A stretch of 64,000 bases of DNA, taken from the NCBI GenBank assembly GCA_965207365.1, contig OZ242281.1, positions 2,173,331 through 2,237,330 of the forward strand, given 5' to 3'. A program made the translations under genes and the position numbers. This DNA comes from Dehalococcoidia bacterium (GTDB lineage Bacteria > Chloroflexota > Dehalococcoidia > Bin125). Each line of letters opens with the position of its first letter. Position 1 is the stretch's first letter. The notes beneath the pieces are model-generated. The model was given only the letters and a program-made list of their open reading frames with translations, searched no databases and was not told the DNA's origin. Positions 22,441 through 41,334 of the stretch are shown here, piece after piece.

Positions 22441-22441
22441 G

Positions 22442-26808: not shown

Positions 26809-28434
26809 ATGCAGCGATACCTCATCCAACGCCTGATCCTTGTGATCCCGACCCTGTGGTTGGTGATCTCGCTCCTTTTCCTGGCGCTGCGCGCGCTGCC
26901 TGGCGACTTTGTCACACGGAAACTCTCGAACCTGGAGAATCAGGGCGCGGAACAGCGTGAATCGGAGATCGTTGGATACATCGAAGTCACCGACACGACG
27001 CATCGCGTGATCTCGGGCGACACGCTGGAGAAGATCGCGACCAACAACAACACGTCGGTGTCGGCGCTGCTTGCGCAGAATCCTGACTTGGACACCTCGG
27101 GCGAGCTGCGACCGGGTACGAGAGTCACGGTGATTCCCGGTCAGTTACTCGAGGCGATTTCAATTGGACAGAGCATTGCTTTGCCTGAAGAAGTCGAACA
27201 AGGAGTGCAACTCCTGATCGACCGCAACCCCGATGTCAACTTCCCGCTGTATCAGGGCAAGCCGTATGCCGAGGCGGGGTCGGTTCTGGTCATCCGCGAC
27301 AGCTTGACGCTCGATGAGTTAGCGCACGTCAATCGCATTGATGCGAGCGACATCCTGGCGGTGAATCCAACCGGTAGCGCCAGTAATCCCGACGGCAATC
27401 TATCGGCCGATACGCAATTGCTGCCAACGGCGCTAGTGGTCACCGATGAAGGTGACACCCTGGAGCAGATTGCCGTTGCCTACGGTCGCGATCTAGAAGA
27501 AATGACTACAGCGAACCGGGGCATTGATCCGGCTGAGCCACTAGAAGCCGGAGTCGCGATCCACGTCCCATCCGACCGGATCGTCACGCCAACCACCAAG
27601 ATTACCGAGGCCAACATCAGGCACCGCCTGGGCATCGATAAGGGGCTCGGCACCCAGTACATCGACTTCCTTTGGGAGACGGTGCGGTTGAAATTCCGTC
27701 CGTCGTTCCAGACCCAGGAGGGGTCGCTGGATATCTTCCTCCGAGCATTACCACGTACGTTGCATCTCAACGTGTACGCATTGATCGTGGCGCTGACCAT
27801 CGCGTTGCCGGTCGGCATCCTCTCGGCTATGCGTCAGGACCGCCCGCTGGACTATGCGCTGCGAGGGTTTGCCATCCTCGCACTGGCGGCGCCCTCCTTC
27901 TGGATCGCGACCATGATGATCTTCGTGGTCACGCCGGGCGGCATCTCGGATAGCGGGATCTGGTCGATCCCGCTGACCTCTGAGGAGGCGCGATCGGTGT
28001 TCACATCGTTCACCGGAGCGCTGGCGTTGTACACGATTCCTGCCGTCGCGGGCGGACTTGCCGCCGGCGCCGGTCTGATGCGGATTACGCGGTCCGAGTT
28101 GCTCGAAGTGCTGCGTCAGGACTACGTCCGCACCGCCTGGTCGAAGGGTCTGCGCGAGCGGACCGTGATCCGCCGACACGCGATGCGCAACGCCTTGGTC
28201 AATGTGATGAGCGTGCTCGGCTTGCAGGTGGCGGCCCTGGTTGGCGGCAACATCATCCTCGAGCTGCTATTCAACATTCCCGGCATCGGTTTGCTGCTGA
28301 TTCAGCGGATCAACCAGGCCGATCTGCCCGTCGTACAAACGATGGTCTTCTTCTTTGCGCTGTTCATCATCGTGGTGAACATCATCATCGACATTTCATA
28401 CGCGGTCATCGATCCGCGTATCCGCTTCGCCTAA
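26809..28434 (+). CDS. DppB/OppB-type ABC permease with LysM-like insert (B1)
   Basis: Canonical N-terminus and C-terminal half (EVLRQDYVRTAWSKGL EAA loop; DPRIRFA end). A ~260-aa insert after TM1 holds LysM-like segments. Confidence 0.85.
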   Translation: MQRYLIQRLILVIPTLWLVISLLFLALRALPGDFVTRKLSNLENQGAEQRESEIVGYIEVTDTTHRVISGDTLEKIATNNNTSVSALLAQNPDLDTSGELRPGTRVTVIPGQLLEAISIGQSIALPEEVEQGVQLLIDRNPDVNFPLYQGKPYAEAGSVLVIRDSLTLDELAHVNRIDASDILAVNPTGSASNPDGNLSADTQLLPTALVVTDEGDTLEQIAVAYGRDLEEMTTANRGIDPAEPLEAGVAIHVPSDRIVTPTTKITEANIRHRLGIDKGLGTQYIDFLWETVRLKFRPSFQTQEGSLDIFLRALPRTLHLNVYALIVALTIALPVGILSAMRQDRPLDYALRGFAILALAAPSFWIATMMIFVVTPGGISDSGIWSIPLTSEEARSVFTSFTGALALYTIPAVAGGLAAGAGLMRITRSELLEVLRQDYVRTAWSKGLRERTVIRRHAMRNALVNVMSVLGLQVAALVGGNIILELLFNIPGIGLLLIQRINQADLPVVQTMVFFFALFIIVVNIIIDISYAVIDPRIRFA

Positions 28435-28470
28435 CCGGGTGACTGCACCGGCTGACCGGGGAGGGGCAAC

Positions 28471-29709
28471 ATGAGTGATGACCGACAGTCTCAAACGCAA
28501 CTCGAGGAGTTCGCGCAGGCGCAGGGCCTGCGCGTTGAGGAACGCAGCTTTCTGCAGCTGCTTGGCCGCGCGTTGGTGTCATTTTTCCGGACTAAGCCAT
28601 TGGGCGCCGCTGGGCTGACGCTGGTTGTGGTCTGGTCGGTCATCGCCGTGGGGACGGTCGGTTCCGGCGGCGGTTGGTTGGGCTTGGGTCGTTACGACTC
28701 GCAGGATGTCTTCAAAGTCGCCAACGCCAACTTCGCCGACGACAAGATTGCCAACGAACTCGACGGCAAATCGGCTGATATCTCCGACAGCGAGCTTCGC
28801 GAGCTTCTGTTACAACCCGCCGTCTATGGCGATCTGGCTGAGCAGTCCGGTGTCCTTGACGACATGCTGGAGTACGTCGAAGGTCTGATCGCAAGCGGAA
28901 CGCTGCTGACTCACCTGGCGGAGTTCGACCCAGCCCAGATTGAGATCGTTGACGGCACGATCAACGATGTCGATGACTTGCTCGCGACCGGCACGAACAC
29001 GCCGCTGACAACGGCCTCGCTGCAAGGGCCCTCGGGCAAGCACTGGTTCGGCACCGACCGCGCGGGACACGACCTCTTCTCCCGGGTGACTGAAGGCGCG
29101 CGGTTGTCGCTCTACATTGGCTTCTTCGCCACGCTGATCGGTGTGGTCGCTGGAACAGCCATCGGACTCATTTCTGGCGCCCTGGGCGGCAACATCGACC
29201 TGGCGATCAACCGTCTGATGGACGCGCTGCTCTCCTTCCCGCCAATCGTGCTGTTGCTGTTGTTGCGCTCGGTGACGGAGCCATCTGCGCTGTGGGTGAC
29301 GTTGGCGCTCTCGGTGCTGGCTGTGGGGCCCGTCCAGCGGATTGTCCGCGGCGCGGTGATCGCACTGCGCGAGATGCCCTTTGTCGAGGCCGCCCGGACG
29401 GTCGGCGCGACGAACGCCCGAATCATGCTGATGCACATTCTGCCTAACATCGTTGCCCCGTTGATCGTGATCTTCTCGATCACCATCGGCGCGTTCATCC
29501 TCGCCGAGGCCGCGCTCAGCTTCCTCGGACTGGGCACGCTCGATGTCTCCTGGGGCAAGATGATCGCCGACGGTCGCCAGTTCATTGTGCAGTCGCCATG
29601 GACCTCGTTGTTCGCCGGCCTGGCGCTGACCAGCCTGGTGTTTGGCTTCAATGTCCTCGGCGATGCGCTGCGAGATGTCTTCGACCCGAGACTGCGTGGC
29701 AGCCGCTAG
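28471..29709 (+). CDS. DppC/OppC-type ABC permease with extended outside loop (C1)
   Basis: HWFGTDRAGHDLFSRV, EAA loop REMPFVEAARTVGATNARIM and GDALRDVFDPRLR. An insert of ~130-150 aa follows TM1. Confidence 0.85.
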   Translation: MSDDRQSQTQLEEFAQAQGLRVEERSFLQLLGRALVSFFRTKPLGAAGLTLVVVWSVIAVGTVGSGGGWLGLGRYDSQDVFKVANANFADDKIANELDGKSADISDSELRELLLQPAVYGDLAEQSGVLDDMLEYVEGLIASGTLLTHLAEFDPAQIEIVDGTINDVDDLLATGTNTPLTTASLQGPSGKHWFGTDRAGHDLFSRVTEGARLSLYIGFFATLIGVVAGTAIGLISGALGGNIDLAINRLMDALLSFPPIVLLLLLRSVTEPSALWVTLALSVLAVGPVQRIVRGAVIALREMPFVEAARTVGATNARIMLMHILPNIVAPLIVIFSITIGAFILAEAALSFLGLGTLDVSWGKMIADGRQFIVQSPWTSLFAGLALTSLVFGFNVLGDALRDVFDPRLRGSR

Positions 29710-29966: not shown

Positions 29967-30004
29967 TTGGCGAATGTTCCACTGGACGCCTTGTACGCTA
30001 CACT
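29967..30004 (+). promoter_or_regulatory. candidate promoter of SBP4 (TTGGCG-N26-TACACT)
   Basis: Same two hexamers as upstream of SBP2 and SBP3 but with longer spacing, so weaker. Confidence 0.2.
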
Positions 30005-30054
30005 TTCACAACCATCGACGCGCGTCCGCCGCGCTTCTGAAGGAGCGAGAACTG

Positions 30055-32064
30055 ATGACCGAACGTAACTATTGGCAGCGCATGAAGCGCAATCGGCTTA
30101 GTCGCAGAGATCTGTTGCGAGCCTCAGGTCGGGCTGGCGTTGGAGCCGCCGGCCTGGCTCTGGTCGGTTGTGGTGACGATGACGACGATGCTCAGCCAGC
30201 GGCTGCTTCCCGTCAGCAGGACCAGCAGCAGGACCAGCAAGAGGTCATGCAGCAACAGCAGCAGGACCAGCAGCAACAGGCGATGCAGCAGCAGGATCAG
30301 CAGCAGCAAGCCGAGCAGACCGCTGCCGCTGCCGATCAACAGGACCAGCAGCAACAGCAGGCGATGCAGCAACAGCAGCAGCAATCCGGCGACCTCCGCT
30401 CGTACGGCGGCACGCTGCGCTTCTCAACTCCTGCCGCCACGCACGACTTCTTCGACCCGCACCGCGGCGTCTTCGGCCCCACCCAGTACTGGATGGGGTT
30501 CTACATGAACTACATGATCCGCTGGGCCTCGAAAGAGGGCGGGATCATGGAAGCGGACATCACATCTCTGCCCGAGACGCCCGATGCCGAGACGTACATC
30601 TTCAACGTCGACCGCGGCGCCCGCTACTGGGACCAATACCCGACCGAGGGCGGTCGTGATGTCACCGCCAGCGATATTGTGATCAACTTCGACCGCCAGA
30701 TCGCCGCGCTCGACGCCGAAGGCAACCCCGACGCGCGATTCCGCGGCCAGGACGCCTTCAAGAAAACCGCCTCGCACGAAGCGGTTGACGAGACGACCTT
30801 CGTCGCTAAGACTGCAGGTCCCGACGCGACCTATCTCGGTGGCACCATCCTGCGACCCTTCTCCTGGATCACCTCGCCGGAGGGCATCCAGGAGTTCGGT
30901 ACTCGCTGGCGCGACGAGACCGCAAACGTCGAACTCTCCTCCGGCACGGGCCCGTTCATCCCGCAGACCTTCGACCCGGATATCGGCATCTACCTGGAAC
31001 GCAACTCCAACTACTGGAAGGACGGTCCCGACGGCCAGCAGCTTCCCTACCCGGACGCCGTTGAGTTCGTCAACCTGACCGATGCGACCGCAGTCGACGC
31101 GGCATACCGCGGCAAGGGCATCGACATCGGCGGGTTCCCGCTGTCTTCGGTGCAGGTCGAAGAGCTGACCGGCGACTTCCCCGACCACCCGGTCGAGGAA
31201 GGCGCATTCGGCTTCACGATCGTCACCGTCATGGGCACATATGAGCCCGGCTGGGAAGGCTCGGACGGGCAGGGGAACCCATACCTCGACCGTCGTTTCG
31301 CCTACGCGATGCAGGTTGCGGTCGACCGCGACCTGTTGATCGACGCCGTCTACCTGGGCGCGGCCAAGCCGTCGGCGACCCACTTCTGTCCATGGTTCAG
31401 CCAGTACTGGACCGTTCCGCCCGAGGAGCTGCGCACGGTTCCGGGCTTCCGCCTCGACCGCGATGCCGACATCGCACTCTGCCGCGAACTGATCGAAGCC
31501 TCCGGCTTCGACAAGGACCGCACGGTGACGATCTACATCCCCGACCTCTGGGAGCAGACCTACCCGGGTATCACCGAGACCACGCGCAACATGTACGCCG
31601 AGGCGACCGGCATCAACGTCGAGCTGGACATCCAGCCCTACACCGTGATGCAGGACCGCTACGACAACAAGACGTTCCCCGGCCGGGCGCCGACCTGGAC
31701 CAACCCGCCGGCCGACCTCGACCCGACGGCGCAGTTCACCCTGTCGCTGAAGGTTGGTGGCGCGTCGAACCTGACGCAGTACAGCTACCAGCCGGTTGAG
31801 GACATCGTTGACACGATGTCAGTCACGCTTGACACCGAGCAGCGCCGCGACATGGCGCTGGAGGTGCAGCGGATCGGCCTTGGCGTTGACGAGGAACACG
31901 GCCTTGAAGGCATCTTCGGCTGGTTTGGCGTCATGAATGGCATCGCGCCAACCATCTGGTGGCCGTATGTCAACCGACCCGACGACACCTGGCAGTTCGC
32001 GCACGACTCGCACAACTGGGACACCGTTTGGATGGACAGCAGCCACCCGGACTTCCCGGCCTAG
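30055..32064 (+). CDS. ABC substrate-binding protein, family 5, Tat-lipoprotein, paralog 4
   Basis: Starts at internal ATG 30055 preceded by AAGGAG. Leader MTERNYWQRMKRNRLSRRDLLRASGRAGVGAAGLALVGCGDDDDD, with a Gln/Asp tether. Confidence 0.88.
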   Translation: MTERNYWQRMKRNRLSRRDLLRASGRAGVGAAGLALVGCGDDDDDAQPAAASRQQDQQQDQQEVMQQQQQDQQQQAMQQQDQQQQAEQTAAAADQQDQQQQQAMQQQQQQSGDLRSYGGTLRFSTPAATHDFFDPHRGVFGPTQYWMGFYMNYMIRWASKEGGIMEADITSLPETPDAETYIFNVDRGARYWDQYPTEGGRDVTASDIVINFDRQIAALDAEGNPDARFRGQDAFKKTASHEAVDETTFVAKTAGPDATYLGGTILRPFSWITSPEGIQEFGTRWRDETANVELSSGTGPFIPQTFDPDIGIYLERNSNYWKDGPDGQQLPYPDAVEFVNLTDATAVDAAYRGKGIDIGGFPLSSVQVEELTGDFPDHPVEEGAFGFTIVTVMGTYEPGWEGSDGQGNPYLDRRFAYAMQVAVDRDLLIDAVYLGAAKPSATHFCPWFSQYWTVPPEELRTVPGFRLDRDADIALCRELIEASGFDKDRTVTIYIPDLWEQTYPGITETTRNMYAEATGINVELDIQPYTVMQDRYDNKTFPGRAPTWTNPPADLDPTAQFTLSLKVGGASNLTQYSYQPVEDIVDTMSVTLDTEQRRDMALEVQRIGLGVDEEHGLEGIFGWFGVMNGIAPTIWWPYVNRPDDTWQFAHDSHNWDTVWMDSSHPDFPA

Positions 32065-32092
32065 ACCGGGTCCAGTAGACGATGAGTTCTCT

Positions 32093-32115
32093 GCTCCCCC
32101 CATCGCGGGGGGAGC
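32093..32115 (+). terminator. intercistronic GC hairpin between SBP4 and permease B2 (attenuator/mRNA-stabiliser candidate)
   Basis: gctcccccc-atcgc-ggggggagc: 9-bp stem, no U-tract. Confidence 0.4.
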
Positions 32116-32151
32116 GAGGCCTCAAGTGCGCTCACGGCGCAAGAGCAGGCA

Positions 32152-33633
32152 ATGCAGAAGTACCTGATCCGGCGCATCATATTGGTGATCCCGACGCTGT
32201 GGCTCGTGATCTCCATTCTGTTTCTGGTGCTCAACGCACTTCCTGGTGACTACGTCACGATCAAGCTCGCCAATCTCGAAGCGTCGGGCGCGACCAAGAT
32301 CGAGGCTGAGATTGTCGGCGAGGTTGAAGTTGAACGGACGCTACACCGCGTCGTCGGCGGCGACACGCTGGACACTCTTGCGTTGAAGTACGGTGTCGGT
32401 GTTGCGGATATCGTCGCCAACAACCGTAGCCTGGATGCCAACTCCGAGTTGAGACCCGGTTCGACGATTGTCATTATCGATGGCCAACTCTTGTCCTCGA
32501 TCTCAAGGACGGCGCGGTTGGCGCTGCCGGAAAACACAGAGGACGGCGTTGCGCTGCTCGCGGAACGCAATCCCGATGTTGAGTTCGGTACGTTCTCTGG
32601 TGAGCTGTTCGCGCCCGCGGGCGTCACGCTGACGTTGCGCGAAAGCACCACACTGCGCGAGCTAGCGGTGGTCAACCGGGTCAGCCCCGACGACTACATG
32701 AACGTCAACGAAGAGGGCACGCCGGCGAACGAAGATGGCTCGCTGACCGTTGACACACCGTTGTTGCCTGGTCAGAAGTTCATCTCGCCGACTCGGGAAA
32801 TCACCGAGGCCAGCATCAAGAACCAGCTCGGCATCGACAAGCCGCTCGGCACGCAATACCTCGAATATCTGTGGGACACGATCCGCTTCCAGTTCCGGCC
32901 CTCGTTCCAGACCAACGAACCGTCGATGGACATCTTCCTGCGTTCCCTGCCGCGTTCGCTGCATCTCACCGTGTACGCGCTGATCGTGGCCGTCGTGGTG
33001 GCGTTGCCGGTTGGCATTCTTTCGGCGATGCGCCAAGACCAATGGGTCGACTACGCCCTGCGCGGGTTCGCGATTCTGGCCCTGGCCGCACCGGCGTTCT
33101 GGATCGCAACGATGATGATCTTTGTCGTCTCGCCTGGAGGCATTTTTGAGGGCGGCTTATGGTCGATTCCATTGACCGAGGAGAGCGCGAGGAGCATTTT
33201 CACCTCTGTTGATGGGTTCTTTGCGCTCTACACGATCCCCGCTGTCGCGGGCGGCATCGCCGCCGGGGCCGGGCTGATGCGGATCACCCGCTCCGAATTA
33301 CTTGAAGTGTTGCGGCAGGACTACGTACGTACCGCCTGGTCCAAAGGACTGCGCGAGCGCTCGGTCATCCGCCGGCACGCCCTGCGTAACGCACTGGTGC
33401 CGGTCTTGAGCGTGTTCGGCCTACAGCTCGCAGCGCTGGTTGGCGGCAACATCATCCTCGAAATTCTCTTCAATATTCCCGGAATCGGCCTGATGCTGAT
33501 TCAACGGCTCTACCAGGCCGACATCCCGGTTATCCAGACTGCGGTGTTCTTCCTGGCGCTCTTCGTGATCATCGTCAACATCGTGATCGACATTAGCTAT
33601 GCGCTGATCGATCCACGCATCCGCTACGACTAG
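32152..33633 (+). CDS. DppB/OppB-type ABC permease with LysM-like insert (B2)
   Basis: MQKYLIRRIILVIPTLWLVISILFL; LysM-like HRVVGGDTLDTLALKYGVGVADIVANNRSLDANSELRPGSTIVII; intact EAA loop YVRTAWSKGL. Confidence 0.85.
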   Translation: MQKYLIRRIILVIPTLWLVISILFLVLNALPGDYVTIKLANLEASGATKIEAEIVGEVEVERTLHRVVGGDTLDTLALKYGVGVADIVANNRSLDANSELRPGSTIVIIDGQLLSSISRTARLALPENTEDGVALLAERNPDVEFGTFSGELFAPAGVTLTLRESTTLRELAVVNRVSPDDYMNVNEEGTPANEDGSLTVDTPLLPGQKFISPTREITEASIKNQLGIDKPLGTQYLEYLWDTIRFQFRPSFQTNEPSMDIFLRSLPRSLHLTVYALIVAVVVALPVGILSAMRQDQWVDYALRGFAILALAAPAFWIATMMIFVVSPGGIFEGGLWSIPLTEESARSIFTSVDGFFALYTIPAVAGGIAAGAGLMRITRSELLEVLRQDYVRTAWSKGLRERSVIRRHALRNALVPVLSVFGLQLAALVGGNIILEILFNIPGIGLMLIQRLYQADIPVIQTAVFFLALFVIIVNIVIDISYALIDPRIRYD

Positions 33634-33640
33634 GGCCGAT

Positions 33641-34891
33641 ATGAGTCAGCAACCAGGCGCTAGCCAGCAACCTGATCAGGGTCAGCAGCTTGACGAATTC
33701 GCTGCAGCGGAAGGGTTGCAGGTTGACCAGGCGACCGGCCTGCGGCGCTGGCTGGTTGGTTTCCGACAGTTCATGTCGTCCAAGCGTCTCGGGGCCGCCG
33801 GTGTTGTGATCGTGGTGCTCTGGAGTGTCATCGCGGTCGGCACAGTCGGTGATGATGGTGGTTGGCTGGGTATCGGGCGATACGACTCTCGAGACGTGTT
33901 CGAAATCGCATCGGTGAGCTATGCCGATGACAAACTCGCTAACGCTCTTGATGGAGTGAGCGCAGATGTTTCAGCTTCTGAACTGCGAGCCATTGTCAGC
34001 GATCCCGACATCTTCGAAGAGGCGGCGTGGAATGTCGGCGTCGAGCTTGAGATGGTCGAGTACGCGCTTGGACGGGTTGAAGCGGGTGATCTGATTGACT
34101 GGTTGGTCCGGGAGCAACAGATCGAGATTGACGACGGTGTGATCGCCGACCATGATCGATTGCTCGCTGCCGGAACCGACAATCCCTTGATCACGGCGTC
34201 GTTGCTGGGACCGTCCGGCAAGCACTGGTTCGGCACGGACCGGGCTGGTCACGATCTTTTCTCTCGCGTGACCGAAGGCGCTCGCCTCTCGCTCTACATC
34301 GGATTCTTCGCCACGCTGATTGGTGTGGCCGCCGGAACGGTGACGGGATTGGTTTCCGGATCCCTTGGCGGGTCTGTCGACCTGATCATCAACCGAATCC
34401 TCGACGCGGTGCAGAGCTTCCCGCCCATCGCATTCCTCCTGCTGATCGCCTCGATCACCGACCCCTCAGCGCTCTGGGTGACCTTGTCGCTGTCAGTGCT
34501 GGGTATCGCGCCAACCAATCGAATTGTGCGCGGTAGCGTGATCCAGATTCGTGAGATGCCCTACGTCGAGGCGGCTCGCACCATTGGCGCCACCTCTTCC
34601 CGAATCATGAGCTTTCACATTCTGCCAAACATCTTCGCGCCGCTGATCGTAATCTTCTCGATCACCATCGGTGCGTTCATCCTGGCCGAGGCGGCGCTGA
34701 GTTTCCTCGGTCTGGGCACGTTGGATGTCTCGTGGGGCAAGATGATCGCCGACGGACGCCAGTTCATCGTCTATTCGCCCTGGACATCGCTCTGGGCCGG
34801 CCTGGCGCTGACGTCGCTGGTGTTTGGATTCAACGTCCTCGGCGACGCCCTCCGCGATGTCCTCGACCCACGCCTGCGGGGCAGTCGCTAG
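33641..34891 (+). CDS. DppC/OppC-type ABC permease with extended outside loop (C2)
   Basis: Paralog of C1. HWFGTDRAGHDLFSRV and EAA loop REMPYVEAARTIGATSSRIM. Confidence 0.85.
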   Translation: MSQQPGASQQPDQGQQLDEFAAAEGLQVDQATGLRRWLVGFRQFMSSKRLGAAGVVIVVLWSVIAVGTVGDDGGWLGIGRYDSRDVFEIASVSYADDKLANALDGVSADVSASELRAIVSDPDIFEEAAWNVGVELEMVEYALGRVEAGDLIDWLVREQQIEIDDGVIADHDRLLAAGTDNPLITASLLGPSGKHWFGTDRAGHDLFSRVTEGARLSLYIGFFATLIGVAAGTVTGLVSGSLGGSVDLIINRILDAVQSFPPIAFLLLIASITDPSALWVTLSLSVLGIAPTNRIVRGSVIQIREMPYVEAARTIGATSSRIMSFHILPNIFAPLIVIFSITIGAFILAEAALSFLGLGTLDVSWGKMIADGRQFIVYSPWTSLWAGLALTSLVFGFNVLGDALRDVLDPRLRGSR

Positions 34892-34900
34892 CCTCACGAC

Positions 34901-36310
34901 ATGCGTGTTCCGCCGGAGTTGCGAAGCCGAATCGCTATGCGGTTCGTGTTGGCGTTGGTCTCCGTTTGGGTGGCCGTATCGATCATCTTTCTGCTGACCA
35001 CCGGGACGGTGGGCGATTTCGTTACGCAGAAGTTGACCAACCTGGAGAATCAAGGAGCTGAAACTCGCCTGACCGAGATCGCCGGCGAGATTGAGGTCGG
35101 CGTCACTAGAGTGCCTGCCGTCAACGGCCAGACTATCGCCGACATCGCCGCTGAGCGAGGCCTGTCACTGGCCGATCTGCTGACCCTCAACCGAGAGCGC
35201 GATCCTCAAGAATCGCTACCCCATGGCGCGCGAGTCACGGTGCTGGCGGGCGAATGGCTCTCCGATCTGGCAATCAAGTGGCGTGTCGTGCGTCCAGAAG
35301 ACGGCGATCACGGCGTCGCACTGTTGCGCGAACGGAACTCCGAGATCGACTTCGCGGTTTCTGAAGGACGCCTATACGCGCCGACGGGCGCCATCCTGAC
35401 TTTGCATCACGGCGTCAGCGTGGCTGAGCTCGCGGAGGTCCACCGGATCGCTGCCGCCGACATCCTGGAAGTCAATCCGGCGGGCAGCCCAGGCAATCCG
35501 GATGGAGCGCTCACCGAAGACTCGCTTCTGTATCACGGCGACCAGATTGCGTTGCCGATGTCGAAGATTACGTCAGCCACGATTCGGTATCGGCTGGGCG
35601 TCGACCGCTCACTAGCCGACCAATACGTGCAGTTTCTCTGGGATGTGGTCCGTTTCGACTACAGCGCCTCGTTCCAGACGCAGGAGAATTCGCTGGCCAT
35701 CGTCGCACGAGCGTTGCCGCGCACGGTTCAGCTCAATCTATTCGCGCTGATCATTGCGCTCGTGATCGGTGTACCGCTCGGTTGGTTGGCGAGCGGACGC
35801 ACTAGTCGGCTGGTTGCTCTCCCGGCGCGCAGCCTCGCCCTGTTGAGCCTGGCGGTGCCCTCGTTCTGGATCGCCACGTGGTTGATCGTTGCTGTCGATC
35901 CGGGCGGCATTCTCGAAGACGGGCTCTGGAACATTCCGTTCACGGATCCCGCCGCACGTGCGATCACAGATTCGCCTGTGCAGTTCTTTGCGCTCTATGG
36001 CATCCCGGCGTTTAGTGGTGGACTCCTCATGGCCGGCGTGATTGGGTTCGCTCTCCGTTGGGGTGTCACGTGGGAGGAGATCCTGCGTCGGCTCCGCGGC
36101 TGGATACCAGTGTTCGTCGGCCTGAATCTGGTGTTGGAGTTGCTGTTCAATATCCAGGGACTCGGCCTGCTGCTGATTCAACGGGTGAATCAGGCCGATT
36201 TGCCCGTGATCATTGCCGTCTGCGCAATCACCGCGCTCTTCATCGTCTGGTGTCTATTCGTGATCGACAGCGCCCGCGACGTGCTGCAGTGGAAGGAGCG
36301 GCGGACATGA
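34901..36310 (+). CDS. divergent DppB-like membrane protein with LysM-like insert, EAA loop missing (B3)
   Basis: Retains the TM1/GDFV/LysM/LELLFNIQGLGLLLIQRVNQADLPV blocks. The ~60-aa EAA region of B1 and B2 is replaced by ~30 unrelated residues. Confidence 0.75.
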   Translation: MRVPPELRSRIAMRFVLALVSVWVAVSIIFLLTTGTVGDFVTQKLTNLENQGAETRLTEIAGEIEVGVTRVPAVNGQTIADIAAERGLSLADLLTLNRERDPQESLPHGARVTVLAGEWLSDLAIKWRVVRPEDGDHGVALLRERNSEIDFAVSEGRLYAPTGAILTLHHGVSVAELAEVHRIAAADILEVNPAGSPGNPDGALTEDSLLYHGDQIALPMSKITSATIRYRLGVDRSLADQYVQFLWDVVRFDYSASFQTQENSLAIVARALPRTVQLNLFALIIALVIGVPLGWLASGRTSRLVALPARSLALLSLAVPSFWIATWLIVAVDPGGILEDGLWNIPFTDPAARAITDSPVQFFALYGIPAFSGGLLMAGVIGFALRWGVTWEEILRRLRGWIPVFVGLNLVLELLFNIQGLGLLLIQRVNQADLPVIIAVCAITALFIVWCLFVIDSARDVLQWKERRT

Positions 36311-37416
36311 ACACCCGCACGCTTGGCCGCTCCACCATCGCCGGACTCACGGCCGTCGGCCGACTGGTCCGGCGCGAACCCGTTGGTACGTTCGGATTCC
36401 TGATCCTGCTTGTCTGGAGCGTCGTCGCCCTGGGCGCTATCGGTTCAGGTGGCGGCTGGCTCGGCATCGGTCGCTACGACAGCAGTGAAGTATTCAGGAC
36501 GCTGAATATCGAGTTCGCGCATCTCAAGGCCGCCGCCGCTCTGGATGGGTCGCCCGCAGACCTCTCCCACCAGCAGATCCAGGAGCTATTGGCCTCGCCG
36601 GACGTATACGGTCCCTTTGCCGAAGCCACCGATGTACAAGGCGTGATTCAGCACTACTTGCAACCACTGATCGCTGAGGGAGAACTGATCCCGCTCCTCT
36701 CAGCCGGCAGATCGCCCCACATCGAGGTGACGGGTGGGGTGATTCACCAAGTGGGCCAAGGATTTTCCAGAGACGCAAATCGGCCTCTGGTCATCAACTC
36801 GCTGCAACCGCCCTCAGGGGCGCACTGGTTCGGTACCAACCAGACAGGCAACGACATCTACGCGGTGATTGTCGATCGCGCCTGGCGAGTCCTCTACATC
36901 GGCTTCCTCGCAGCGGTAACCGGAGTCGCCGCCGGCGTGCTCCTAGTGCTCGCCGCGCAGCCGCTGCGAGCCACACGGATCGGCCGCGCTCTCGCGGCGC
37001 TGATCGGTTCAGTGCTGGACGGCCTACTGGCGCTACCGCCGCTGATCCTGCTGCTCCTGGCTGTGTTTGGACACGGACCGCGGGATCTCGCACTAATCTT
37101 GCCGCTCGCCGCGTTCGCCCTCCCGTTCGTCTGGCGGACATTCAGCGAGTCCGATTCGGGCGTCGCGCCAGCGGCGCTGATCGTCGTCTTCCGAAATGTG
37201 ATGTTGATCGCCATCCTGTCCGAGGCAGCCCTGAGTTTCATCGGCCTCTCCTGGGGTTGGGGGCTGTTGGTCGCGCATGGTCGCCAGTACATTGTTCAGG
37301 CGCCCTGGCTGACTCTGTCTGCCGGACTGGCGATAACCTCAGTGCTGCTGGGTGTGTGCGCCCTGGGCTATGGACTCCGCAACCTGACCGAAACACGCAA
37401 AGGCGAGGCGCAATGA
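36307..37416 (+). CDS. divergent DppC-like membrane protein, EAA loop missing (C3)
   Basis: ATG 36307 overlaps the B3 stop (ATGA). Retains GGGWLGIGRYDS, HWFGTNQTGNDIY and SEAALSFIGL, but has no FVEAAR..G motif. Confidence 0.75.
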   Translation: MNTRTLGRSTIAGLTAVGRLVRREPVGTFGFLILLVWSVVALGAIGSGGGWLGIGRYDSSEVFRTLNIEFAHLKAAAALDGSPADLSHQQIQELLASPDVYGPFAEATDVQGVIQHYLQPLIAEGELIPLLSAGRSPHIEVTGGVIHQVGQGFSRDANRPLVINSLQPPSGAHWFGTNQTGNDIYAVIVDRAWRVLYIGFLAAVTGVAAGVLLVLAAQPLRATRIGRALAALIGSVLDGLLALPPLILLLLAVFGHGPRDLALILPLAAFALPFVWRTFSESDSGVAPAALIVVFRNVMLIAILSEAALSFIGLSWGWGLLVAHGRQYIVQAPWLTLSAGLAITSVLLGVCALGYGLRNLTETRKGEAQ

Positions 37417-38456
37417 CATCCTTTGACCACGCCACCGACGCTCCTGAACTCCCCGGTGGCATTCTTCGATTCACGCTGCCGATGCCTCCTCCGTTGGGCC
37501 ACGTGCATGTCTGGTTGATCTCGACCGGCAATGGCTGGGCCATGTTCGACGCCGGCTTCCCGTCACCGCAGGGCGTCGACAAACTCGAGCAAGAGATCCA
37601 GCCGCTGCTCACCGACGGCCGCCGGCTCGAGGCCGTCTTCATCAGTCACTACCACCCTGATCACACCGCGTTCGCCGGTCGGTTGCAACGTGCGTTCGAT
37701 TGCGATGTCTACGTCCACGAGGCCGACTGGGAACGCATGCAGATGATGAACGCCATGCGCCAGGCCGACGACGGCTCCGGCGAGGCATTCCGTCGCAGGT
37801 TCTCCAGCGGCTGGACGGAATCGCTTGACGACCATCAATTCGATGGAGAACAGTCGCAGGACGCCAGCGACAGCATGTTCTCGCGGATGCGCGACGCAAT
37901 GAAAGATATCGAGCTGCCGATGCCGGAACCGACCGTCCTGCAGGGCGGCGAAGTGATCGAGGTCGGCGGACGCAACCTGGAAGCAATCTGGACGCCCGGA
38001 CACACCGACGGTCACCTGTGCGTCCGCGAGCTCGACCAGGACGCGCTGTTCACCGGCGACCATCTGCTCGGCCGGATCACGCCGCACATCGGGATGTGGC
38101 CGGATCAGGAGCGGTCGCCGCTGCCAGACTTCGAAGAGTCACTCAAGCTGGTCCAGGAGTTGAACTCATCGATCGCGCTACCCGCTCACGAGGCGATCAT
38201 CGAGCATCCGGCCGAGCGTGCCGCTGAGATTCTGGAACACCATCAGGAGCGACGGGTGGAGATGCTCAATGCCGTCTCGGACGGCAATCACTCGGTCAAA
38301 GACATCGCAATCCAGACCTTCCCCAAGCGAGCCCACGACCGGATGCAGTTGACGATGGCAATGTCCGAAACCGTCGCCCATCTCGAAGCGCTGGTTGAGG
38401 AAGACAAGCTGACCCGCAGCGGCGGCGATGTCGAACGGCGTTACACGCTCGTCTGA
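37413..38456 (+). CDS. MBL-fold metallo-hydrolase
   Basis: ATG 37413 overlaps the C3 stop (ATGA). Carries the HxHxDH motif ISHYHPDHTAF and TPGHTDGH. Confidence 0.85.
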   Translation: MTSFDHATDAPELPGGILRFTLPMPPPLGHVHVWLISTGNGWAMFDAGFPSPQGVDKLEQEIQPLLTDGRRLEAVFISHYHPDHTAFAGRLQRAFDCDVYVHEADWERMQMMNAMRQADDGSGEAFRRRFSSGWTESLDDHQFDGEQSQDASDSMFSRMRDAMKDIELPMPEPTVLQGGEVIEVGGRNLEAIWTPGHTDGHLCVRELDQDALFTGDHLLGRITPHIGMWPDQERSPLPDFEESLKLVQELNSSIALPAHEAIIEHPAERAAEILEHHQERRVEMLNAVSDGNHSVKDIAIQTFPKRAHDRMQLTMAMSETVAHLEALVEEDKLTRSGGDVERRYTLV

Positions 38457-38525
38457 TCAGGTCAAGCGACCGCGATTCCTCTACCTTCTACCTCGACGTA
38501 GAGCACGACTCATGTGGAGGTTCGC

Positions 38526-39401
38526 ATGGCTGATCAGTCTGGCAAGGTCGCATTCATCACGGGAGCGGGTTCGGGAATCGGTCAGGGCACTGCCGTCCGG
38601 CTGGCGCGCGACGGCGCCGACGTTTGCATCGCCGAGATCGACCTGGACGGCGCAGCGGAGACTGCGTCGATGGTTCGCGAGTTCGGACGCTCAGCTCATG
38701 TCGTGCAATGCAATGTTGCGTCGCAGTCGCAGGTGCAAGCCGCGGCAGACGAATGTGTCAAGGAGCTGGGCGGTATCAACATCGCGGTCGCTAACGCAGG
38801 CATCGGACGCGGCGGTTCGGTCCTCGACATGCCGCTGAAGGACTGGCAAGACCAGGTCGACATCAACCTCACGGGCGTCTTTCTGACGGTTCAGGCCGCA
38901 GCGCAGCGGATGGTGGCGCAGGGCGACGGCGGACGGATCGTCTGCATCTCTTCATTGGCTGCGCTCAGCACCAGTCAGTGGATGTGGAGCTACTCCGCAA
39001 CAAAGGCCGGCGTGGCTATGATGGTCCGCGGCTGGGCCTCTGACCTCGGGCCACACGGGATCAACATCAACGCGATCGGTCCCGGCGTGATCGACACCCC
39101 GCTGGCGCATGGTCTCGCCGGAGACGAAGGCGGCCCAATTCGAACCGCATTGGAAGAGGCGACTCCGCTCGGTCGCTCAGGCGCACCATCCGATATCGCC
39201 GGCCTGATCTCGTTCCTGGTCGGCCATGACGCCGACTTCATGACCGGCAGCTACCTCGTCATGGACGGTGGCATACGCGACGCGCGCGGAGGGAATCTGC
39301 TCGAAGATCCTGAGACGCCGCTTGGTCAGGAGCGTGCACGTCACATGCACGCCTCTGAGGAGCGCAACGCACGAATGCAGCCGCTGATCGATCAGCGATA
39401 G
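38526..39401 (+). CDS. SDR-family oxidoreductase
   Basis: VAFITGAGSGIGQG, NAG, and YSATK (YxxxK). Confidence 0.88.
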   Translation: MADQSGKVAFITGAGSGIGQGTAVRLARDGADVCIAEIDLDGAAETASMVREFGRSAHVVQCNVASQSQVQAAADECVKELGGINIAVANAGIGRGGSVLDMPLKDWQDQVDINLTGVFLTVQAAAQRMVAQGDGGRIVCISSLAALSTSQWMWSYSATKAGVAMMVRGWASDLGPHGININAIGPGVIDTPLAHGLAGDEGGPIRTALEEATPLGRSGAPSDIAGLISFLVGHDADFMTGSYLVMDGGIRDARGGNLLEDPETPLGQERARHMHASEERNARMQPLIDQR

Positions 39402-39419
39402 AGCGATGGGGAGGTTCCA

Positions 39420-40520
39420 ATGGCCGCAATGCCCGATCTTCCCGACGCCGCGCGCGCCATGGTGCTGACCGGCGTGCGCCAACTGGAGATGCAGGAGTTT
39501 CCGATTCCCGACATCGGCCCCGACGACGGCCTGCTGCGCATGGAAGTCTGCGGTATCTGCGGATCGGACTATGAGCAGTTCAATGGCGAATTCTCTGTGC
39601 ACTTCCCGGTGATTCCGGGCCACGAACCGGTCGGACGGATTGCGGCACTGGGCGAGCGCGGGCAAGAGCGCTGGGGCGTTGAGGTTGGTGACCTCGTCTC
39701 CGTCGAGCCTGGAGTGCGTTGTGGTCGCTGCAAGCAATGTCTGGACGGTCGACAGTGCAGCGACGGCGCAGGCATTGGCTACACCTTGACAGATCGCGCG
39801 CCGGCTCTCTGGGGTGGCTACGCGGAGTACCTCTATCTGCATCCGGCAACCGTGATGCACCGGATGCCCAACGACATGCCGCCTCGACTGGCTGCCCTCT
39901 ACAACCCATTGGGCGCCGGCTTCGCCTGGGCGGTCAACGCGACCGACCTGCAAGTCGGACAGACGGTGGTGGTGCTCGGCGCAGGGCAACGCGGCATCTG
40001 CTCGGTCATTGCGGCGCGAGCCGCCGGCGCCGGCACGATCATCACCACCGGCCTGGGTCGCGACGAGCACAAACTCGCGCTGGCCAGGGAGTTCGGCGCC
40101 GACATGACCCTGGTCGCCGATAGCGATCCCGTCGTGGAGCGAGTGCTCGAAGCCACCGATGGTCGAGGGGCTGATGTCGTGATCGATGTCACACCCTACG
40201 CCACCGATCCCGTGTCGGATGCGATGAAGATGGCGCGTCGAGGCGGCACGGTCGTGCTTGCCGGACTCAAAGGCGGCCGTCGTGTGCCTGAGTTCAATTC
40301 CGACGACATCGTGACTCGCCAACTCACGGTTAAGGGAGTCTTCGGCGTCGATCATGAGTCGTTTGTCCAGGCAGTCGATACCATCCGATCAGGTCGCGTT
40401 CCACTGGACAAGTTGCACTCGCATGCATTTGCCTTGGAGGACGCTGCAACGGCAATCGACACGCTCGCTGGCGAGACTGGCGAGCCAGCCGTCAATGTCA
40501 CGATCGAGCCCTGGCTCTGA
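39420..40520 (+). CDS. zinc-dependent MDR alcohol dehydrogenase
   Basis: EVCGICGSDYE, GHEPVGRI and VVVLGAGQRG. Confidence 0.85.
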   Translation: MAAMPDLPDAARAMVLTGVRQLEMQEFPIPDIGPDDGLLRMEVCGICGSDYEQFNGEFSVHFPVIPGHEPVGRIAALGERGQERWGVEVGDLVSVEPGVRCGRCKQCLDGRQCSDGAGIGYTLTDRAPALWGGYAEYLYLHPATVMHRMPNDMPPRLAALYNPLGAGFAWAVNATDLQVGQTVVVLGAGQRGICSVIAARAAGAGTIITTGLGRDEHKLALAREFGADMTLVADSDPVVERVLEATDGRGADVVIDVTPYATDPVSDAMKMARRGGTVVLAGLKGGRRVPEFNSDDIVTRQLTVKGVFGVDHESFVQAVDTIRSGRVPLDKLHSHAFALEDAATAIDTLAGETGEPAVNVTIEPWL

Positions 40521-40627
40521 GTCGGCAGCGATGCACCATCGATACTGAGGGCCGCTAAAGGTCGGTTAGGATTGCTCTATCTGCAATACCGTCGGAGTCG
40601 GTGTCGAGGCATCGATAGAGCCACTAG

Positions 40628-41293
40628 ATGAAGGGAACAGTGATGCCCGAACTCTCTATCAGCGATCAGATCGTTCTGCTGGGCTTGGGTGAAGACGGCG
40701 TGCTCGACCGCCCGTACGACGGGCGGCTGGACTACGCCATCGCTGGGGCTTCCTTGCTTGATTTGTCATTCCTGAACCGAATCGACACTGACCCCAATCG
40801 GCTCTTTATCATCTCCGCCGACTCAACCGGCAATCCGCTGCTCGATAGCGTGCTGCACCAGATCAACTCTGGTCCTCCCAACCAGCCGATCTCGTACTGG
40901 ATATCTGAGATCGCCCGTTACTCGCTCGTTCTGCGACAACAGGTGATCGAGGACCTCCTCGAGCGCAACATCATCCACCGCGAGGCCGGCCGTCGGTTGA
41001 TCGTGCTGAAGTCGGAGAAGTTCCCGCCGACCGACCCACAGGTTGTGCGCGATGTGCAGCGCCGGTTGATCGACACGCTGCTCTCCGATGAGATCCCCGA
41101 GCCGGATGTCGTCGCGCTGATCGGCCTCGCCCGAGCCAGCCGCCTGCTTGAACTGCTGCTGCCCCGTGAGTACCTGGACCGCGTTGAAACCCGTGTCGAG
41201 CAGCTCGCTCGCATGGACCTGATCGGGATGAGCGTCAACCGGACGCTGGACGAGATTCAGGCCGCAGTCGCGCTTGCGGTGCCAGGACTGTAG
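40628..41293 (+). CDS. GPP34 (GOLPH3/VPS74-like) family protein
   Basis: IVLLGLGEDGVLDRPYDGRLDYAIAGASLLDLSFLNRI and the later helical pattern are typical of bacterial GPP34 proteins. Confidence 0.6.
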   Translation: MKGTVMPELSISDQIVLLGLGEDGVLDRPYDGRLDYAIAGASLLDLSFLNRIDTDPNRLFIISADSTGNPLLDSVLHQINSGPPNQPISYWISEIARYSLVLRQQVIEDLLERNIIHREAGRRLIVLKSEKFPPTDPQVVRDVQRRLIDTLLSDEIPEPDVVALIGLARASRLLELLLPREYLDRVETRVEQLARMDLIGMSVNRTLDEIQAAVALAVPGL

Positions 41294-41334
41294 GGCTACC
41301 TCGATCGAGCCTGAGTAGACGAGCGGAGGCGACT

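What the first reader, a model, noticed from the sequence alone, without database searches (positions are those of the whole stretch)
34901..37416. Third permease pair (B3/C3) is ORF-intact but has lost both EAA coupling loops
B1 and B2 keep the cytoplasmic coupling loop LEVLRQDYVRTAWSKGLRER.VIRRHA.RNAL. C1 and C2 keep REMP(F/Y)VEAART.GA...RIM..HILPNI.

In B3 the equivalent ~60 aa are replaced by ~30 unrelated residues (GFALRWGVTWEEILRRLRGWIPVFVGLNLVLE). In C3 they are replaced by FSESDSGVAPAALIVVFRNVMLIAIL. The flanking TM blocks survive (LELLFNIQGLGLLLIQRVNQADLPV; SEAALSFIGL; RQYIVQAPW).

The EAA loop is what docks ABC membrane domains onto the ATPase Q-loop. B3/C3 therefore look like maintained permease derivatives, with no stops or frameshifts, that cannot be energised conventionally. 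Candidate roles are sensor/receptor, scaffold, facilitator or regulator of the B2/C2 translocator.
Basis: partly seen in the sequence, partly recalled or inferred. Interest (0 to 1): 0.72.

Follow-up and report, generated by a model that had tools for sequence, protein, structure and literature searches.

The report
ABC permease pair without ATPase-coupling loops
Two adjacent membrane-subunit genes of a peptide-type ABC importer have lost the loops that normally connect them to the ATPase motor, yet they are kept intact and under selection in a small group of uncultured Dehalococcoidia, so they probably do something that does not need ATP.

Summary
B3 (34901-36310) and C3 (36307-37416) are intact, translationally coupled Dpp/Opp-type permease paralogs. 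Each has an in-frame loss of about 30 residues that removes the EAA coupling loop between TM4 and TM5. Both have also lost the C-terminal DPR tail.

This is not a one-off decay.
- All 14 B3-type and 16 C3-type relatives (down to 43-47% identity) lack the motif. All 32 canonical paralogs keep it.
- The pair sits at the same operon position in seven genomes.
- dN/dS is 0.21-0.27, against 0.005-0.05 for B2/C2. By topology it is 0.19 outside, 0.24 in the membrane and 0.60 on the cytoplasmic face.
- The EAA-less and canonical clades share no near-invariant cytoplasmic residue, but many in the ectodomains and gate helices.
- AlphaFold models keep the six-helix DppB/DppC fold, with a 5-residue turn where the coupling helices should be.

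Two caveats apply. A relative about 94% identical lacks exactly this 2.5-kb segment, so the pair is dispensable. No ABC ATPase gene lies in any of these loci.

Best reading: a maintained, ATPase-uncoupled accessory dimer that acts at the outer face, probably by docking the operon's binding proteins. That function is inferred, not shown.

The parts
34901..36310 (+). B3: DppB/OppB-type permease paralog (469 aa) without the EAA coupling loop or DPR tail
   Evidence: ORF. Alignment with B1/B2. Orthologs P0001-P0014 all lack the motif. AF2 model pLDDT 80.7. Foldseek matches OppB 8z21_A and DppB 8wd9_B/8z1v_A at E about 1e-6.
36307..37416 (+). C3: DppC/OppC-type permease paralog (369 aa) without the EAA coupling loop or DPR tail. 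Its ATG overlaps the B3 stop (ATGA).
   Evidence: AF2 model pLDDT 82.2. Foldseek matches OppC 8j5s_C and DppC 8z1w_B at E about 1e-6. No Pfam hit.
36056..36103 (+). B3 residues 386-401 (RWGVTWEEILRRLRGW): a short cytoplasmic TM4-TM5 connection where canonical paralogs carry the ~45-aa EAA loop
   Evidence: Alignment gaps. AF2 gives helix 359-385, a 5-residue turn at 386-390, then helix 391-415. Lowest conservation within the clade, 0.43 against 0.80 in canonical.
37138..37170 (+). C3 residues 278-288 (TFSESDSGVAP): a short cytoplasmic TM4-TM5 connection replacing REMPYVEAARTIGATSSRIMSFHILPN
   Evidence: Alignment gaps. AF2 turn at 282-286 between helices 271-281 and 287-311. Conservation 0.48 against 0.85.
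35006..35689 (+). B3 ectodomain (residues 36-263) between TM1 and TM2. It is inserted in the DppB scoop-motif position and contains two LysM-like beta-alpha-alpha-beta units.
   Evidence: AF2 secondary structure. Weak Foldseek LysM matches. 45 near-invariant residues shared with canonical B proteins. Together with the other extracytoplasmic segments of B3 and C3, pooled dN/dS is 0.19.
36436..36855 (+). C3 ectodomain (residues 44-183) between TM1 and TM2, ending in the conserved PSxxHWFGT motif
   Evidence: AF2. 25 near-invariant residues shared with canonical C proteins.
32152..34891 (+). B2 (32152-33633) and C2 (33641-34891): canonical EAA-bearing permease pair immediately upstream. The gap from C2 to B3 is 9 nt.
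   Evidence: B2 aligns end to end with E. coli DppB, including the EAA region.
30055..32064 (+). SBP_bac_5 lipoprotein substrate-binding protein of the same operon, the fourth of four tandem paralogs (20403-32064)
26809..29709 (+). B1 (26809-28434) and C1 (28471-29709): the second canonical permease pair
37413..38456 (+). Metallo-beta-lactamase-fold hydrolase gene. Its ATG overlaps the C3 stop (ATGA). It is present in 4 of 7 B3/C3 loci.

Best explanation
B3 and C3 are real protein-coding genes under selection. They descend from an ancient duplication of a Dpp/Opp-type ABC-importer permease pair. The whole ATPase-coupling apparatus has been removed from them: the EAA coupling helices between TM4 and TM5, and the DPR C-terminal tails. 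The six-helix membrane core, the periplasmic gate helices and the large ectodomains were kept.

They are co-transcribed and translationally coupled with the canonical B2C2 pair and its lipoprotein binding proteins. They most likely form an ATPase-free B3-C3 heterodimer. Because selection acts on the membrane core and outer face and hardly at all on the cytoplasmic face, the dimer most probably works from the outside. It would act as an accessory, non-energised docking partner for the operon's substrate-binding proteins. Whether it holds, releases or passively passes their ligand cannot be told here. It is not an essential part of the uptake system.

Shown here: the motif losses, clade-wide conservation, the selection pattern, the predicted fold, operon position and dispensability.

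Inferred: no NBD binding, B3-C3 pairing, binding-protein docking and the physiological role.
For: - Motif loss in both genes with no alternative frame. It is clade-wide: EAA in 0-1/14 and 0-1/16 against 13/13 and 19/19; DPR tail in 0/30 against 32/32.
- Monophyletic B3 and C3 clades, each sister to the canonical B1+B2 or C1+C2 clades, so the duplication and loss are old.
- Same operon position, with 4-bp B3/C3 overlap, in seven genomes. All ORFs are intact although dS exceeds 1 in three of the four deep genome pairs compared.
- dN/dS is 0.21-0.27 with 95% bootstrap limits of 0.16-0.39. By topology: outside 0.19, membrane 0.24, cytoplasmic 0.60.
- Within-clade conservation is lowest at the cytoplasmic loop and tail (0.42-0.51, against 0.80-0.93 in canonical). 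The B3 ectodomain and gate helix stay close to canonical values; the C3 gate helix less so (0.71 against 0.96).
- Near-invariant residues shared with canonical paralogs are 60/86 (B) and 33/60 (C) extracytoplasmic, and none is cytoplasmic.
- AF2 models keep the DppB/DppC fold with a 5-residue TM4-TM5 turn.
- Literature: the EAA coupling helix mediates each TMD-NBD contact, and the region after TM1 (the scoop motif) docks the binding protein in E. coli DppABCDF (PMC12136057). Paired EAA mutations release MalK (PMC6906923).
- Native codon usage.
Against: - No direct evidence of expression, of B3-C3 pairing or of binding-protein docking.
- Constraint is much weaker than on B2/C2.
- The pair is absent from a ~94%-identical relative (L009) and from four other Dehalococcoidia operons of this type, so whatever it does is dispensable.
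- In the ATP-free resting state, type I importer TMDs are inward-facing with the periplasmic entrance occluded (PMC12136057). How an NBD-free dimer would use a docked binding protein is therefore unclear.
- The AF2 models rest on shallow alignments (30-35 sequences) that include canonical homologs.
- The dN/dS pairs share the window sequence and use the Nei-Gojobori approximation.
Confidence: 0.5

Rival explanations
1. B3/C3 are still ATP-energised by an unconventional route. One route would be mixed dimers with the canonical subunits of the same operon (B2-C3, B3-C2), so that one coupling helix per complex remains. The other would be a new, non-EAA contact with an ATPase encoded elsewhere.
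For: - They are co-transcribed with B2C2, with a 9-nt gap.
- The membrane core is conserved.
- ATPase genes are absent from all loci of this transporter family, so the partner is unknown even for the canonical pairs.
- There are clade-specific conserved residues, R399 and P403, at the cytoplasmic start of B3 TM5. Part of the C3 clade has a 5-aa PLRxxR insertion in the TM2-TM3 turn.
Against: - Cytoplasmic segments have dN/dS of 0.60 and the lowest conservation.
- No cytoplasmic residue is shared with the canonical clades.
- B3 and C3 always co-occur, and both lost the loop and the tail. That is what is expected if the two act together without an ATPase.
- No precedent for single-coupling-helix importers was found.
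Confidence: 0.2
2. B3C3 is an ATP-independent facilitator that depends on binding proteins. On this reading, a type I ABC-importer membrane dimer has become a passive or secondary carrier, and flux is pulled by the catabolic enzymes encoded downstream (SDR, ADH, acyl-CoA dehydrogenase, CoA-transferase).
For: - TM5, the gate helix and the pore-region motifs (LELLFNIxGLG..Q..QAD.PV in B3; EAALSF.GL..WG...GRQ in C3) are among the best-kept parts.
- Membrane dN/dS is 0.24.
- Synteny with catabolic genes is conserved.
Against: - No conserved new charged residue was seen in the membrane that would suggest ion coupling.
- No known type I importer TMD transports without its NBDs.
- The pair is dispensable in close relatives.
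- There is no functional data.
Confidence: 0.12
3. B3/C3 are a functionless relic of a duplicated permease pair, decaying slowly and on the way to deletion.
For: - dN/dS is 5-40 times that of B2/C2.
- The Pfam signal is eroded and the LysM domain is no longer detected.
- The segment is a local divergence hot spot, at 85-89% nucleotide identity against 94-97% in the flanks.
- It is cleanly absent in L009 and absent from L011-L014.
- The family is tiny: about 5 clusters at 50% identity among 1.84 billion representatives.
Against: - dN/dS is well below 1, with upper bootstrap limits of 0.30-0.39.
- 840 codons remain open in at least seven genomes and in all 30 database clusters, although dS exceeds 1 in three of the four deep genome pairs compared.
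- The ATGA start/stop overlaps are preserved.
- Constraint is patterned by topology, which neutral decay would not produce.
Confidence: 0.1
4. B3C3 is a membrane anchor for its LysM-like ectodomain. It would bind glycan or the cell envelope as a scaffold, independent of the binding proteins and of transport.
For: - The ectodomain has the lowest dN/dS and 45 residues shared with canonical B proteins.
- Canonical B1 and B2 carry bona fide LysM domains at the same place.
- The AF2 model keeps two beta-alpha-alpha-beta units, with weak LysM structural matches.
Against: - Pfam no longer detects LysM in B3.
- C3 has no LysM, yet it is equally conserved and always co-occurs with B3.
- The gate helices and membrane core are also constrained, which a mere anchor would not need.
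- SAR202-type Dehalococcoidia are reported to lack peptidoglycan synthesis (PMC6306507). Whether this organism belongs to them was not established.
Confidence: 0.08

Closest known systems
DppBC / OppBC permeases of type I ABC peptide importers (E. coli DppBCDF 8z1v, E. coli OppBCDF 8z21, M. tuberculosis DppABCD 8wd9 and OppABCD 8j5q)
   Same: They are homologous by sequence. The predicted six-helix fold is the same. They form a heteromeric B+C gene pair in an operon with SBP_bac_5 binding proteins. The TM5/gate motifs and the HWFGT motif of the C subunit are conserved.
   Different: There is no EAA coupling helix and no DPR tail in either subunit. Large ectodomains lie between TM1 and TM2. In the B subunit the ectodomain is inserted at the scoop-motif position. 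No ATPase genes are in the locus.
Canonical paralogs B1C1 and B2C2 of the same window, and their Dehalococcoidia orthologs
   Same: The architecture is the same, including the ectodomains. Identity is 40-44%. They share the operon.
   Different: The canonical pairs keep the EAA loop, the DPR tail and Pfam-detectable LysM. They evolve 5-40 times more slowly at non-synonymous sites.
Transporter paralogs turned into non-transporting receptors, such as UhpC, yeast Snf3/Rgt2 and Ssy1 (recalled from general knowledge; an analogy only)
   Same: A duplicated transporter keeps its ligand-facing side while losing the normal transport cycle.
   Different: Those proteins are MFS or APC family members with known signalling partners or tails. 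B3/C3 have no added cytoplasmic domain, their cytoplasmic face is unconstrained, and no regulator gene is conserved next to them.
Solitary S-components of ECF transporters, such as BioY acting without its ATPase module (recalled from general knowledge; an analogy only)
   Same: A membrane component of an ABC-type importer that can act without its ATPase.
   Different: The fold and the family are unrelated, and S-components bind the substrate themselves. There is no evidence here that B3C3 transports anything.

Membership tests
Type I ABC importer membrane subunit, Dpp/Opp subfamily (Pfam BPD_transp_1, PF00528) | Significant sequence homology to DppB/OppB and to DppC/OppC | tested here: met
   phmmer against the PDB places B3 with DppB 8z1v_A at E 1.2e-8, in two pieces that skip the EAA region. 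NCBIfam Opp2B/NikB and Opp2C hits have E 1e-17 to 1e-29 but lie far below the equivalog cut-offs. Identity to B1/B2 and C1/C2 is 36-44%.
Type I ABC importer membrane subunit, Dpp/Opp subfamily (Pfam BPD_transp_1, PF00528) | Pfam gathering threshold reached over the domain | tested here: inconclusive
   B3 scores 26.4 bits, equal to the cut-off, and matches only profile positions 120-179 of 184. C3 has no hit. The paralogs score 87-134 bits over positions 1-183.
Type I ABC importer membrane subunit, Dpp/Opp subfamily (Pfam BPD_transp_1, PF00528) | Six-helix DppB/DppC fold | tested here: met
   AF2 models have pLDDT 80.7 and 82.2. The top Foldseek PDB hits are OppB/DppB and OppC/DppC chains at E about 1e-6 to 1e-7. 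These are predictions, not experimental structures.
Type I ABC importer membrane subunit, Dpp/Opp subfamily (Pfam BPD_transp_1, PF00528) | EAA motif (EAA---G---------I-LP), the coupling helix between TM4 and TM5 | tested here: not met
   Alignments. No motif in other frames. Regex finds 0-1/14 and 0-1/16 against 13/13 and 19/19. AF2 gives a 5-residue turn instead.
Type I ABC importer membrane subunit, Dpp/Opp subfamily (Pfam BPD_transp_1, PF00528) | Conserved C-terminal DPR(I/L)R tail of this transporter lineage | tested here: not met
   0/14 B3-type and 0/16 C3-type proteins have it, against 13/13 and 19/19 canonical.
Type I ABC importer membrane subunit, Dpp/Opp subfamily (Pfam BPD_transp_1, PF00528) | Encoded with a cognate substrate-binding protein | tested here: met
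   Four SBP_bac_5 genes lie upstream in the same gene cluster on the + strand. The same holds in seven related loci.
Type I ABC importer membrane subunit, Dpp/Opp subfamily (Pfam BPD_transp_1, PF00528) | Physical and functional association with two nucleotide-binding subunits | not testable with these tools
   There is no Dpp/Opp-type ATPase gene in the 64-kb window or in 13 related loci. Binding cannot be assayed in silico here, and no multimer prediction was available.
Pseudogene | Stops or frameshifts, dN/dS near 1, and no conservation of the reading frame in relatives | tested here: not met
   ORFs are intact in seven genomes and in 30 database clusters. dN/dS is 0.21-0.27 with upper limits of 0.30-0.39.
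LysM domain protein (PF01476) | Pfam LysM match in the B-subunit ectodomain | tested here: inconclusive
   B1 has two LysM domains (61.9 bits) and B2 has one (34 bits). B3 has none at E<=0.01. Some B3-clade members still carry PF01476 in the precomputed annotation. The AF2 model keeps beta-alpha-alpha-beta units with weak LysM structural hits at E 0.07-0.4.
Transporter-derived receptor (transceptor) | Loss of transport plus a signalling output (cytoplasmic domain or partner regulator) | not tested
   There is no extra cytoplasmic domain. No Pfam regulator family is recorded among the genes next to the pair. Transport and signalling cannot be assayed here.

The most novel reading that the evidence does not exclude
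A type I ABC-importer membrane dimer has been converted into an ATPase-free transporter that still depends on binding proteins. It would capture ligand through the operon's high-affinity lipoprotein binding proteins and let it move downhill, pulled by immediate catabolism. That would be a new, energy-saving transport mode in oligotrophic Dehalococcoidia, and a natural experiment on what an importer's membrane domains can do without their motor.
Probability: 0.12. Interest if true: 0.85.

Novelty: new variant of a known kind. Interest (0 to 1): 0.58.

Why it matters
The coupling helix is regarded as the defining mechanical link of ABC importers. Here both partners of a permease pair have excised it, and have then been kept for a long evolutionary time with selection focused on the outer face and membrane core. 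That would show that importer membrane domains can have a selectable role independent of ATP hydrolysis.

It also gives a concrete pair to test, against its canonical sister pair in the same operon: what does binding-protein docking, gating or passive permeation look like without the motor?

For genome annotation, such genes are currently called 'ABC transporter permease' or left unnamed. They should not be counted as functional ATP-driven importers in metabolic reconstructions of Dehalococcoidia/SAR202-type MAGs.

Tried and rejected
- **Double frameshift hiding the EAA loop: rejected.** Three-frame translation and tblastn of the B1/C1 EAA segments against 34901-37416 find only the flanking TM5 blocks.
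- **Shifted but intact motif: rejected.** Regex with canonical paralogs as positive controls. My first regex failed on the controls and was discarded (first part).
- **Simple pseudogenisation: rejected**.
- **Foreign or horizontally acquired segment: not supported.** GC3 is 0.73-0.74 and ENC is 47-48, within the range of neighbouring genes.
- **Internal promoter or terminator separating B3/C3 from B2/C2: nothing above shuffled expectation**.
- **ATPase genes nearby: none found.** A Walker A/LSGGQ scan found only an unrelated ABC-2-type ATPase at 16076-17011 in the window. No ABC ATPase gene is evident in 13 related loci; isolated motif matches there lack the partner motif.
- **GTDB genome scan with the C3 profile: only canonical C genes returned.** It did give the taxon (Dehalococcoidia MAGs) and, by luck, the close relative L009 that lacks the pair.
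- **Literature: no description found.** Searches for permeases lacking the EAA loop, and for SAR202/LysM/ABC, found nothing on such proteins in the held library. That is absence of evidence only.
- **Link to the downstream MBL hydrolase: rejected as obligatory.** The hydrolase is present in 4 of 7 B3/C3 loci, and in L009 without B3/C3.
Full report
**What is there.** The + strand of 20.4-38.5 kb carries one long transporter cluster.
- Three SBP_bac_5 lipoprotein genes: 20403-22358, 22516-24552, 24740-26752.
- B1 (26809-28434) and C1 (28471-29709).
- A fourth binding-protein gene (30055-32064).
- B2 (32152-33633) and C2 (33641-34891).
- B3 (34901-36310) and C3 (36307-37416).
- A metallo-beta-lactamase-fold hydrolase (37413-38456).

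The B3 stop and C3 start overlap as ATGA, and so do the C3 stop and hydrolase start. C2 and B3 are 9 nt apart. No promoter-like or terminator-like site above shuffled expectation separates them. The only ABC ATPase in the 64-kb window is an unrelated ABC-2-type gene at 16076-17011.

**Checking the observation.** MAFFT alignments show that B3 lacks 30 residues and C3 about 27 residues exactly across the EAA region of their paralogs. The residues left there are unrelated to the paralogs.
- Nothing EAA-like is encoded in another frame.
- B2 aligns end to end with E. coli DppB, including ...TRSSMLEVLGEDYIRTARAKGL...HALRNA.... B3 aligns only in two pieces that skip DppB residues about 157-278.
- Pfam sees full BPD_transp_1 domains in B1, B2, C1 and C2. 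In B3 it sees only a C-terminal fragment, at exactly the cut-off. In C3 it sees nothing.
- I also found that the C-terminal DPR(I/L)R tail, present in all 32 canonical relatives examined, is absent from both.
- B3's LysM domain is below Pfam detection.

**It is a family, not an accident.** Searches of the 5.8-billion-protein collection found B3-type proteins from 93% down to 47% identity, and C3-type proteins from 86% down to 43%.
- Every one lacks the EAA segment, although the size of the gap varies (19-30 residues in B3-type). The canonical homologs in the same alignments keep it.
- With canonical proteins as positive controls, an EAA regex hits 13/13 and 19/19 canonical proteins. It gives at most one loose, misplaced match in each of the 14 B3-type and 16 C3-type sets.
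- Neighbour-joining trees place the B3 clade as sister to B1+B2 and the C3 clade as sister to C1+C2, on longer branches. The duplication and loss therefore predate the B1/B2 split.
- A profile search of 1.84 billion cluster representatives found only about five C3-type clusters, all EAA-less, before scores drop to canonical C and then to generic OppC/DppC proteins. The family is small and lineage-restricted.
- Related genome records are titled 'Dehalococcoidia bacterium' MAGs.

**Context elsewhere.** Six further genomes carry the pair: L001, L002, L003/L004, L005, L006/L007 and L008. In each it sits at the same place: binding proteins, B, C, B3-type, C3-type with a 4-bp overlap, then optionally the MBL hydrolase, then SDR, zinc-ADH and acyl-CoA dehydrogenase. 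GPP34 and CoA-transferase follow in some of them. No ABC ATPase gene is evident in any of these loci or in other operons of this type from Dehalococcoidia.

The pair is not universal. L009 is about 94% identical in nucleotides to the window on both sides. L009 11457-16359 matches window 29980-34891, and L009 16403-20958 matches window 37435-41999. L009 goes directly from the C2 stop to the hydrolase start, so it lacks exactly the B3+C3 segment. L011-L014 also have canonical operons without it. More distant genomes carry the pair at the same site, so loss in L009 is the parsimonious reading (inference).

**Selection.** All five genes (binding protein, B2, C2, B3, C3) are intact in all seven genomes. 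Nei-Gojobori estimates for the three close genomes (dS 0.13-0.50):

| Genes | dN/dS |
|---|---|
| B2, C2 | 0.005-0.05 |
| B3, C3 | 0.21-0.27 |

In deep pairs dS is mostly above 1 (saturated), and B3/C3 values are 0.25-0.50. Bootstrap 95% limits for B3/C3 in the close pairs are 0.16-0.39.

Splitting codons by predicted topology and pooling B3 and C3:

| Topology | dN/dS | 95% limits |
|---|---|---|
| Extracytoplasmic | 0.19 | 0.15-0.26 |
| Membrane | 0.24 | 0.19-0.32 |
| Cytoplasmic | 0.60 | 0.38-0.94 |

Column conservation tells the same story.
- Within the EAA-less clades, the cytoplasmic loop and tail are the least conserved parts, at 0.42-0.51. In canonical proteins they score 0.80-0.93.
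- The second half of the B3 ectodomain (0.71 against 0.72) and the B3 gate helix (0.85 against 0.92) are nearly as conserved as in canonical proteins. The C3 gate helix is less so (0.71 against 0.96).
- Of the near-invariant residues shared by the EAA-less and canonical clades, 60 of 86 in B and 33 of 60 in C are extracytoplasmic. None is cytoplasmic.
- Shared blocks include KLxNLENQGA just after TM1, the pre-TM2 segment, the TM5/gate block LELLFNIxGLGLLLxQRxxQADxPV, and in C the GGGWLGIGRYD, PSxxHWFGT and EAALSFxGL...WG...GRQ blocks.

Codon usage is native. The caveats are that the close pairs share the window sequence, the method is approximate, and the topology comes from predicted models.

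**Structure.** AF2 models (pLDDT 80.7 for B3, 82.2 for C3) keep six transmembrane helices.
- In B3, helix 359-385 is joined to helix 391-415 by a 5-residue turn. In C3, helix 271-281 is joined to helix 287-311 by residues 282-286. Canonical proteins have two short coupling helices at these places.
- The best PDB matches are OppB/DppB for B3 and OppC/DppC for C3, at E about 1e-6 to 1e-7.
- The B3 ectodomain (residues 36-263) contains two beta-alpha-alpha-beta units with weak LysM matches.
- Aligned to E. coli DppB, this ectodomain is inserted at the position of the scoop motif. In DppABCDF the scoop motif enters the cleft of the binding protein (PMC12136057).

**Interpretation.** In E. coli DppBCDF each TMD-NBD contact is made by the EAA coupling helix linking TM4 and TM5 (PMC12136057). 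In M. tuberculosis DppABCD the ATPase is held mainly through the EAA loops (PMC10954201). Paired EAA mutations in MalF and MalG abolish transport and release MalK (PMC6906923).

Removing these loops and the conserved tails from both partners, together with near-neutral evolution of the whole cytoplasmic face, makes conventional ATPase coupling very unlikely. This is an inference.

Selection on the ectodomains, gate helices and membrane core, together with co-expression with binding proteins and a canonical pair, points to a role at the outer face. My best reading (confidence 0.5) is an accessory, ATPase-free B3-C3 dimer that still docks the operon's binding proteins.

The rivals are:
- unconventional energisation, for example mixed dimers with B2/C2 (0.2);
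- a genuinely ATP-independent facilitator dependent on binding proteins (0.12);
- a slowly decaying relic (0.1);
- a glycan-binding or envelope scaffold (0.08).

None can be separated further without multimer models, expression data or biochemistry.

**Comparison with known systems.** B3/C3 are homologs of DppBC/OppBC and share their fold. They fail the family's functional hallmark, the EAA loop, and C3 fails the Pfam model altogether. They should be described as permease-derived proteins rather than as ABC-importer permeases.

I found no description of importer permease pairs lacking the EAA loop in the searchable literature, which is weak negative evidence. Transporter-derived receptors (UhpC, Snf3/Rgt2, Ssy1) and solitary ECF S-components are functional analogies recalled from general knowledge, not relatives.

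**Verdict.** I rate it a new variant of a known kind. Interest is moderate to high (0.58), because the function is unknown and the family is small, accessory and confined to uncultured organisms.

Noticed in passing
window 26809-28434 (B1), 32152-33633 (B2), 34901-36310 (B3): All B-type permeases here carry a 170-220 aa ectodomain inserted at the position of the DppB scoop motif, between 'PGDxV' after TM1 and 'ISP...LGxDKP'. Pfam finds two LysM domains in B1, one in B2 and none in B3. LysM in an ABC permease loop is unusual. SAR202-type Dehalococcoidia are reported to lack peptidoglycan synthesis (PMC6306507), so the glycan target is unclear.
   Followed up: partly
whole window 1-64000; loci L001-L014, L024, L028, L038: No Dpp/Opp-type ATPase gene accompanies any of the permease pairs, canonical ones included, in the window or in 13 related Dehalococcoidia loci. 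The ATPases must be encoded elsewhere and perhaps shared.
   Followed up: partly
window 20403-32064: There are four tandem SBP_bac_5 paralogs. Each has a Tat-like RR motif (SRRxLLRASGRAG), a lipobox (LVGC) and then a poly-Asp and Gln-rich low-complexity linker of about 60-100 residues. This suggests long flexible tethers for lipid-anchored binding proteins.
   Followed up: no
window 34901-37416 vs L005 and L006: B3/C3 form a local divergence hot spot among close relatives: 85-89% nucleotide identity against 94-97% in the flanks. Synonymous divergence is 2-3 times that of neighbouring genes. The boundaries are mosaic: window against L005 gives B3 at 94-95% but C3 at 85-89%. This could reflect recombination between divergent alleles or relaxed codon constraint. 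It is unexplained.
   Followed up: partly
L009 16359-16403 vs window 34891-37435: A Dehalococcoidia MAG chromosome (OZ219805.1), about 94% identical to the window on both flanks, lacks precisely the B3+C3 segment. The C2 stop is followed directly by the hydrolase start, with a different hydrolase N-terminus.
   Followed up: yes
window 33641-34891 (C2), 28471-29709 (C1), 36307-37416 (C3): The C-type subunits also have an unusual ectodomain of about 140 aa between TM1 and TM2 (GGGWLGIGRYD ... PSxxHWFGT), plus an N-terminal cytoplasmic extension in C1 and C2 that is shortened in C3. Its structure and role were not examined.
   Followed up: no
window 38514-46492 and L001-L008 downstream regions: A conserved catabolic gene set follows the transporter: SDR, zinc-ADH, GPP34-domain protein, acyl-CoA dehydrogenase and a large CoA-transferase. 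Between them lie variable insertions, either a Fic-domain gene or giant DUF4011/AAA_11/AAA_12 helicase genes. The transported substrate is probably not a simple peptide.
   Followed up: no
window 30124-31383 (-), 34493-35053 (-), 35738-36181 (-) and others: Long antisense ORFs overlap the transporter genes. They look like the usual by-product of 62% GC, with no independent support.
   Followed up: no
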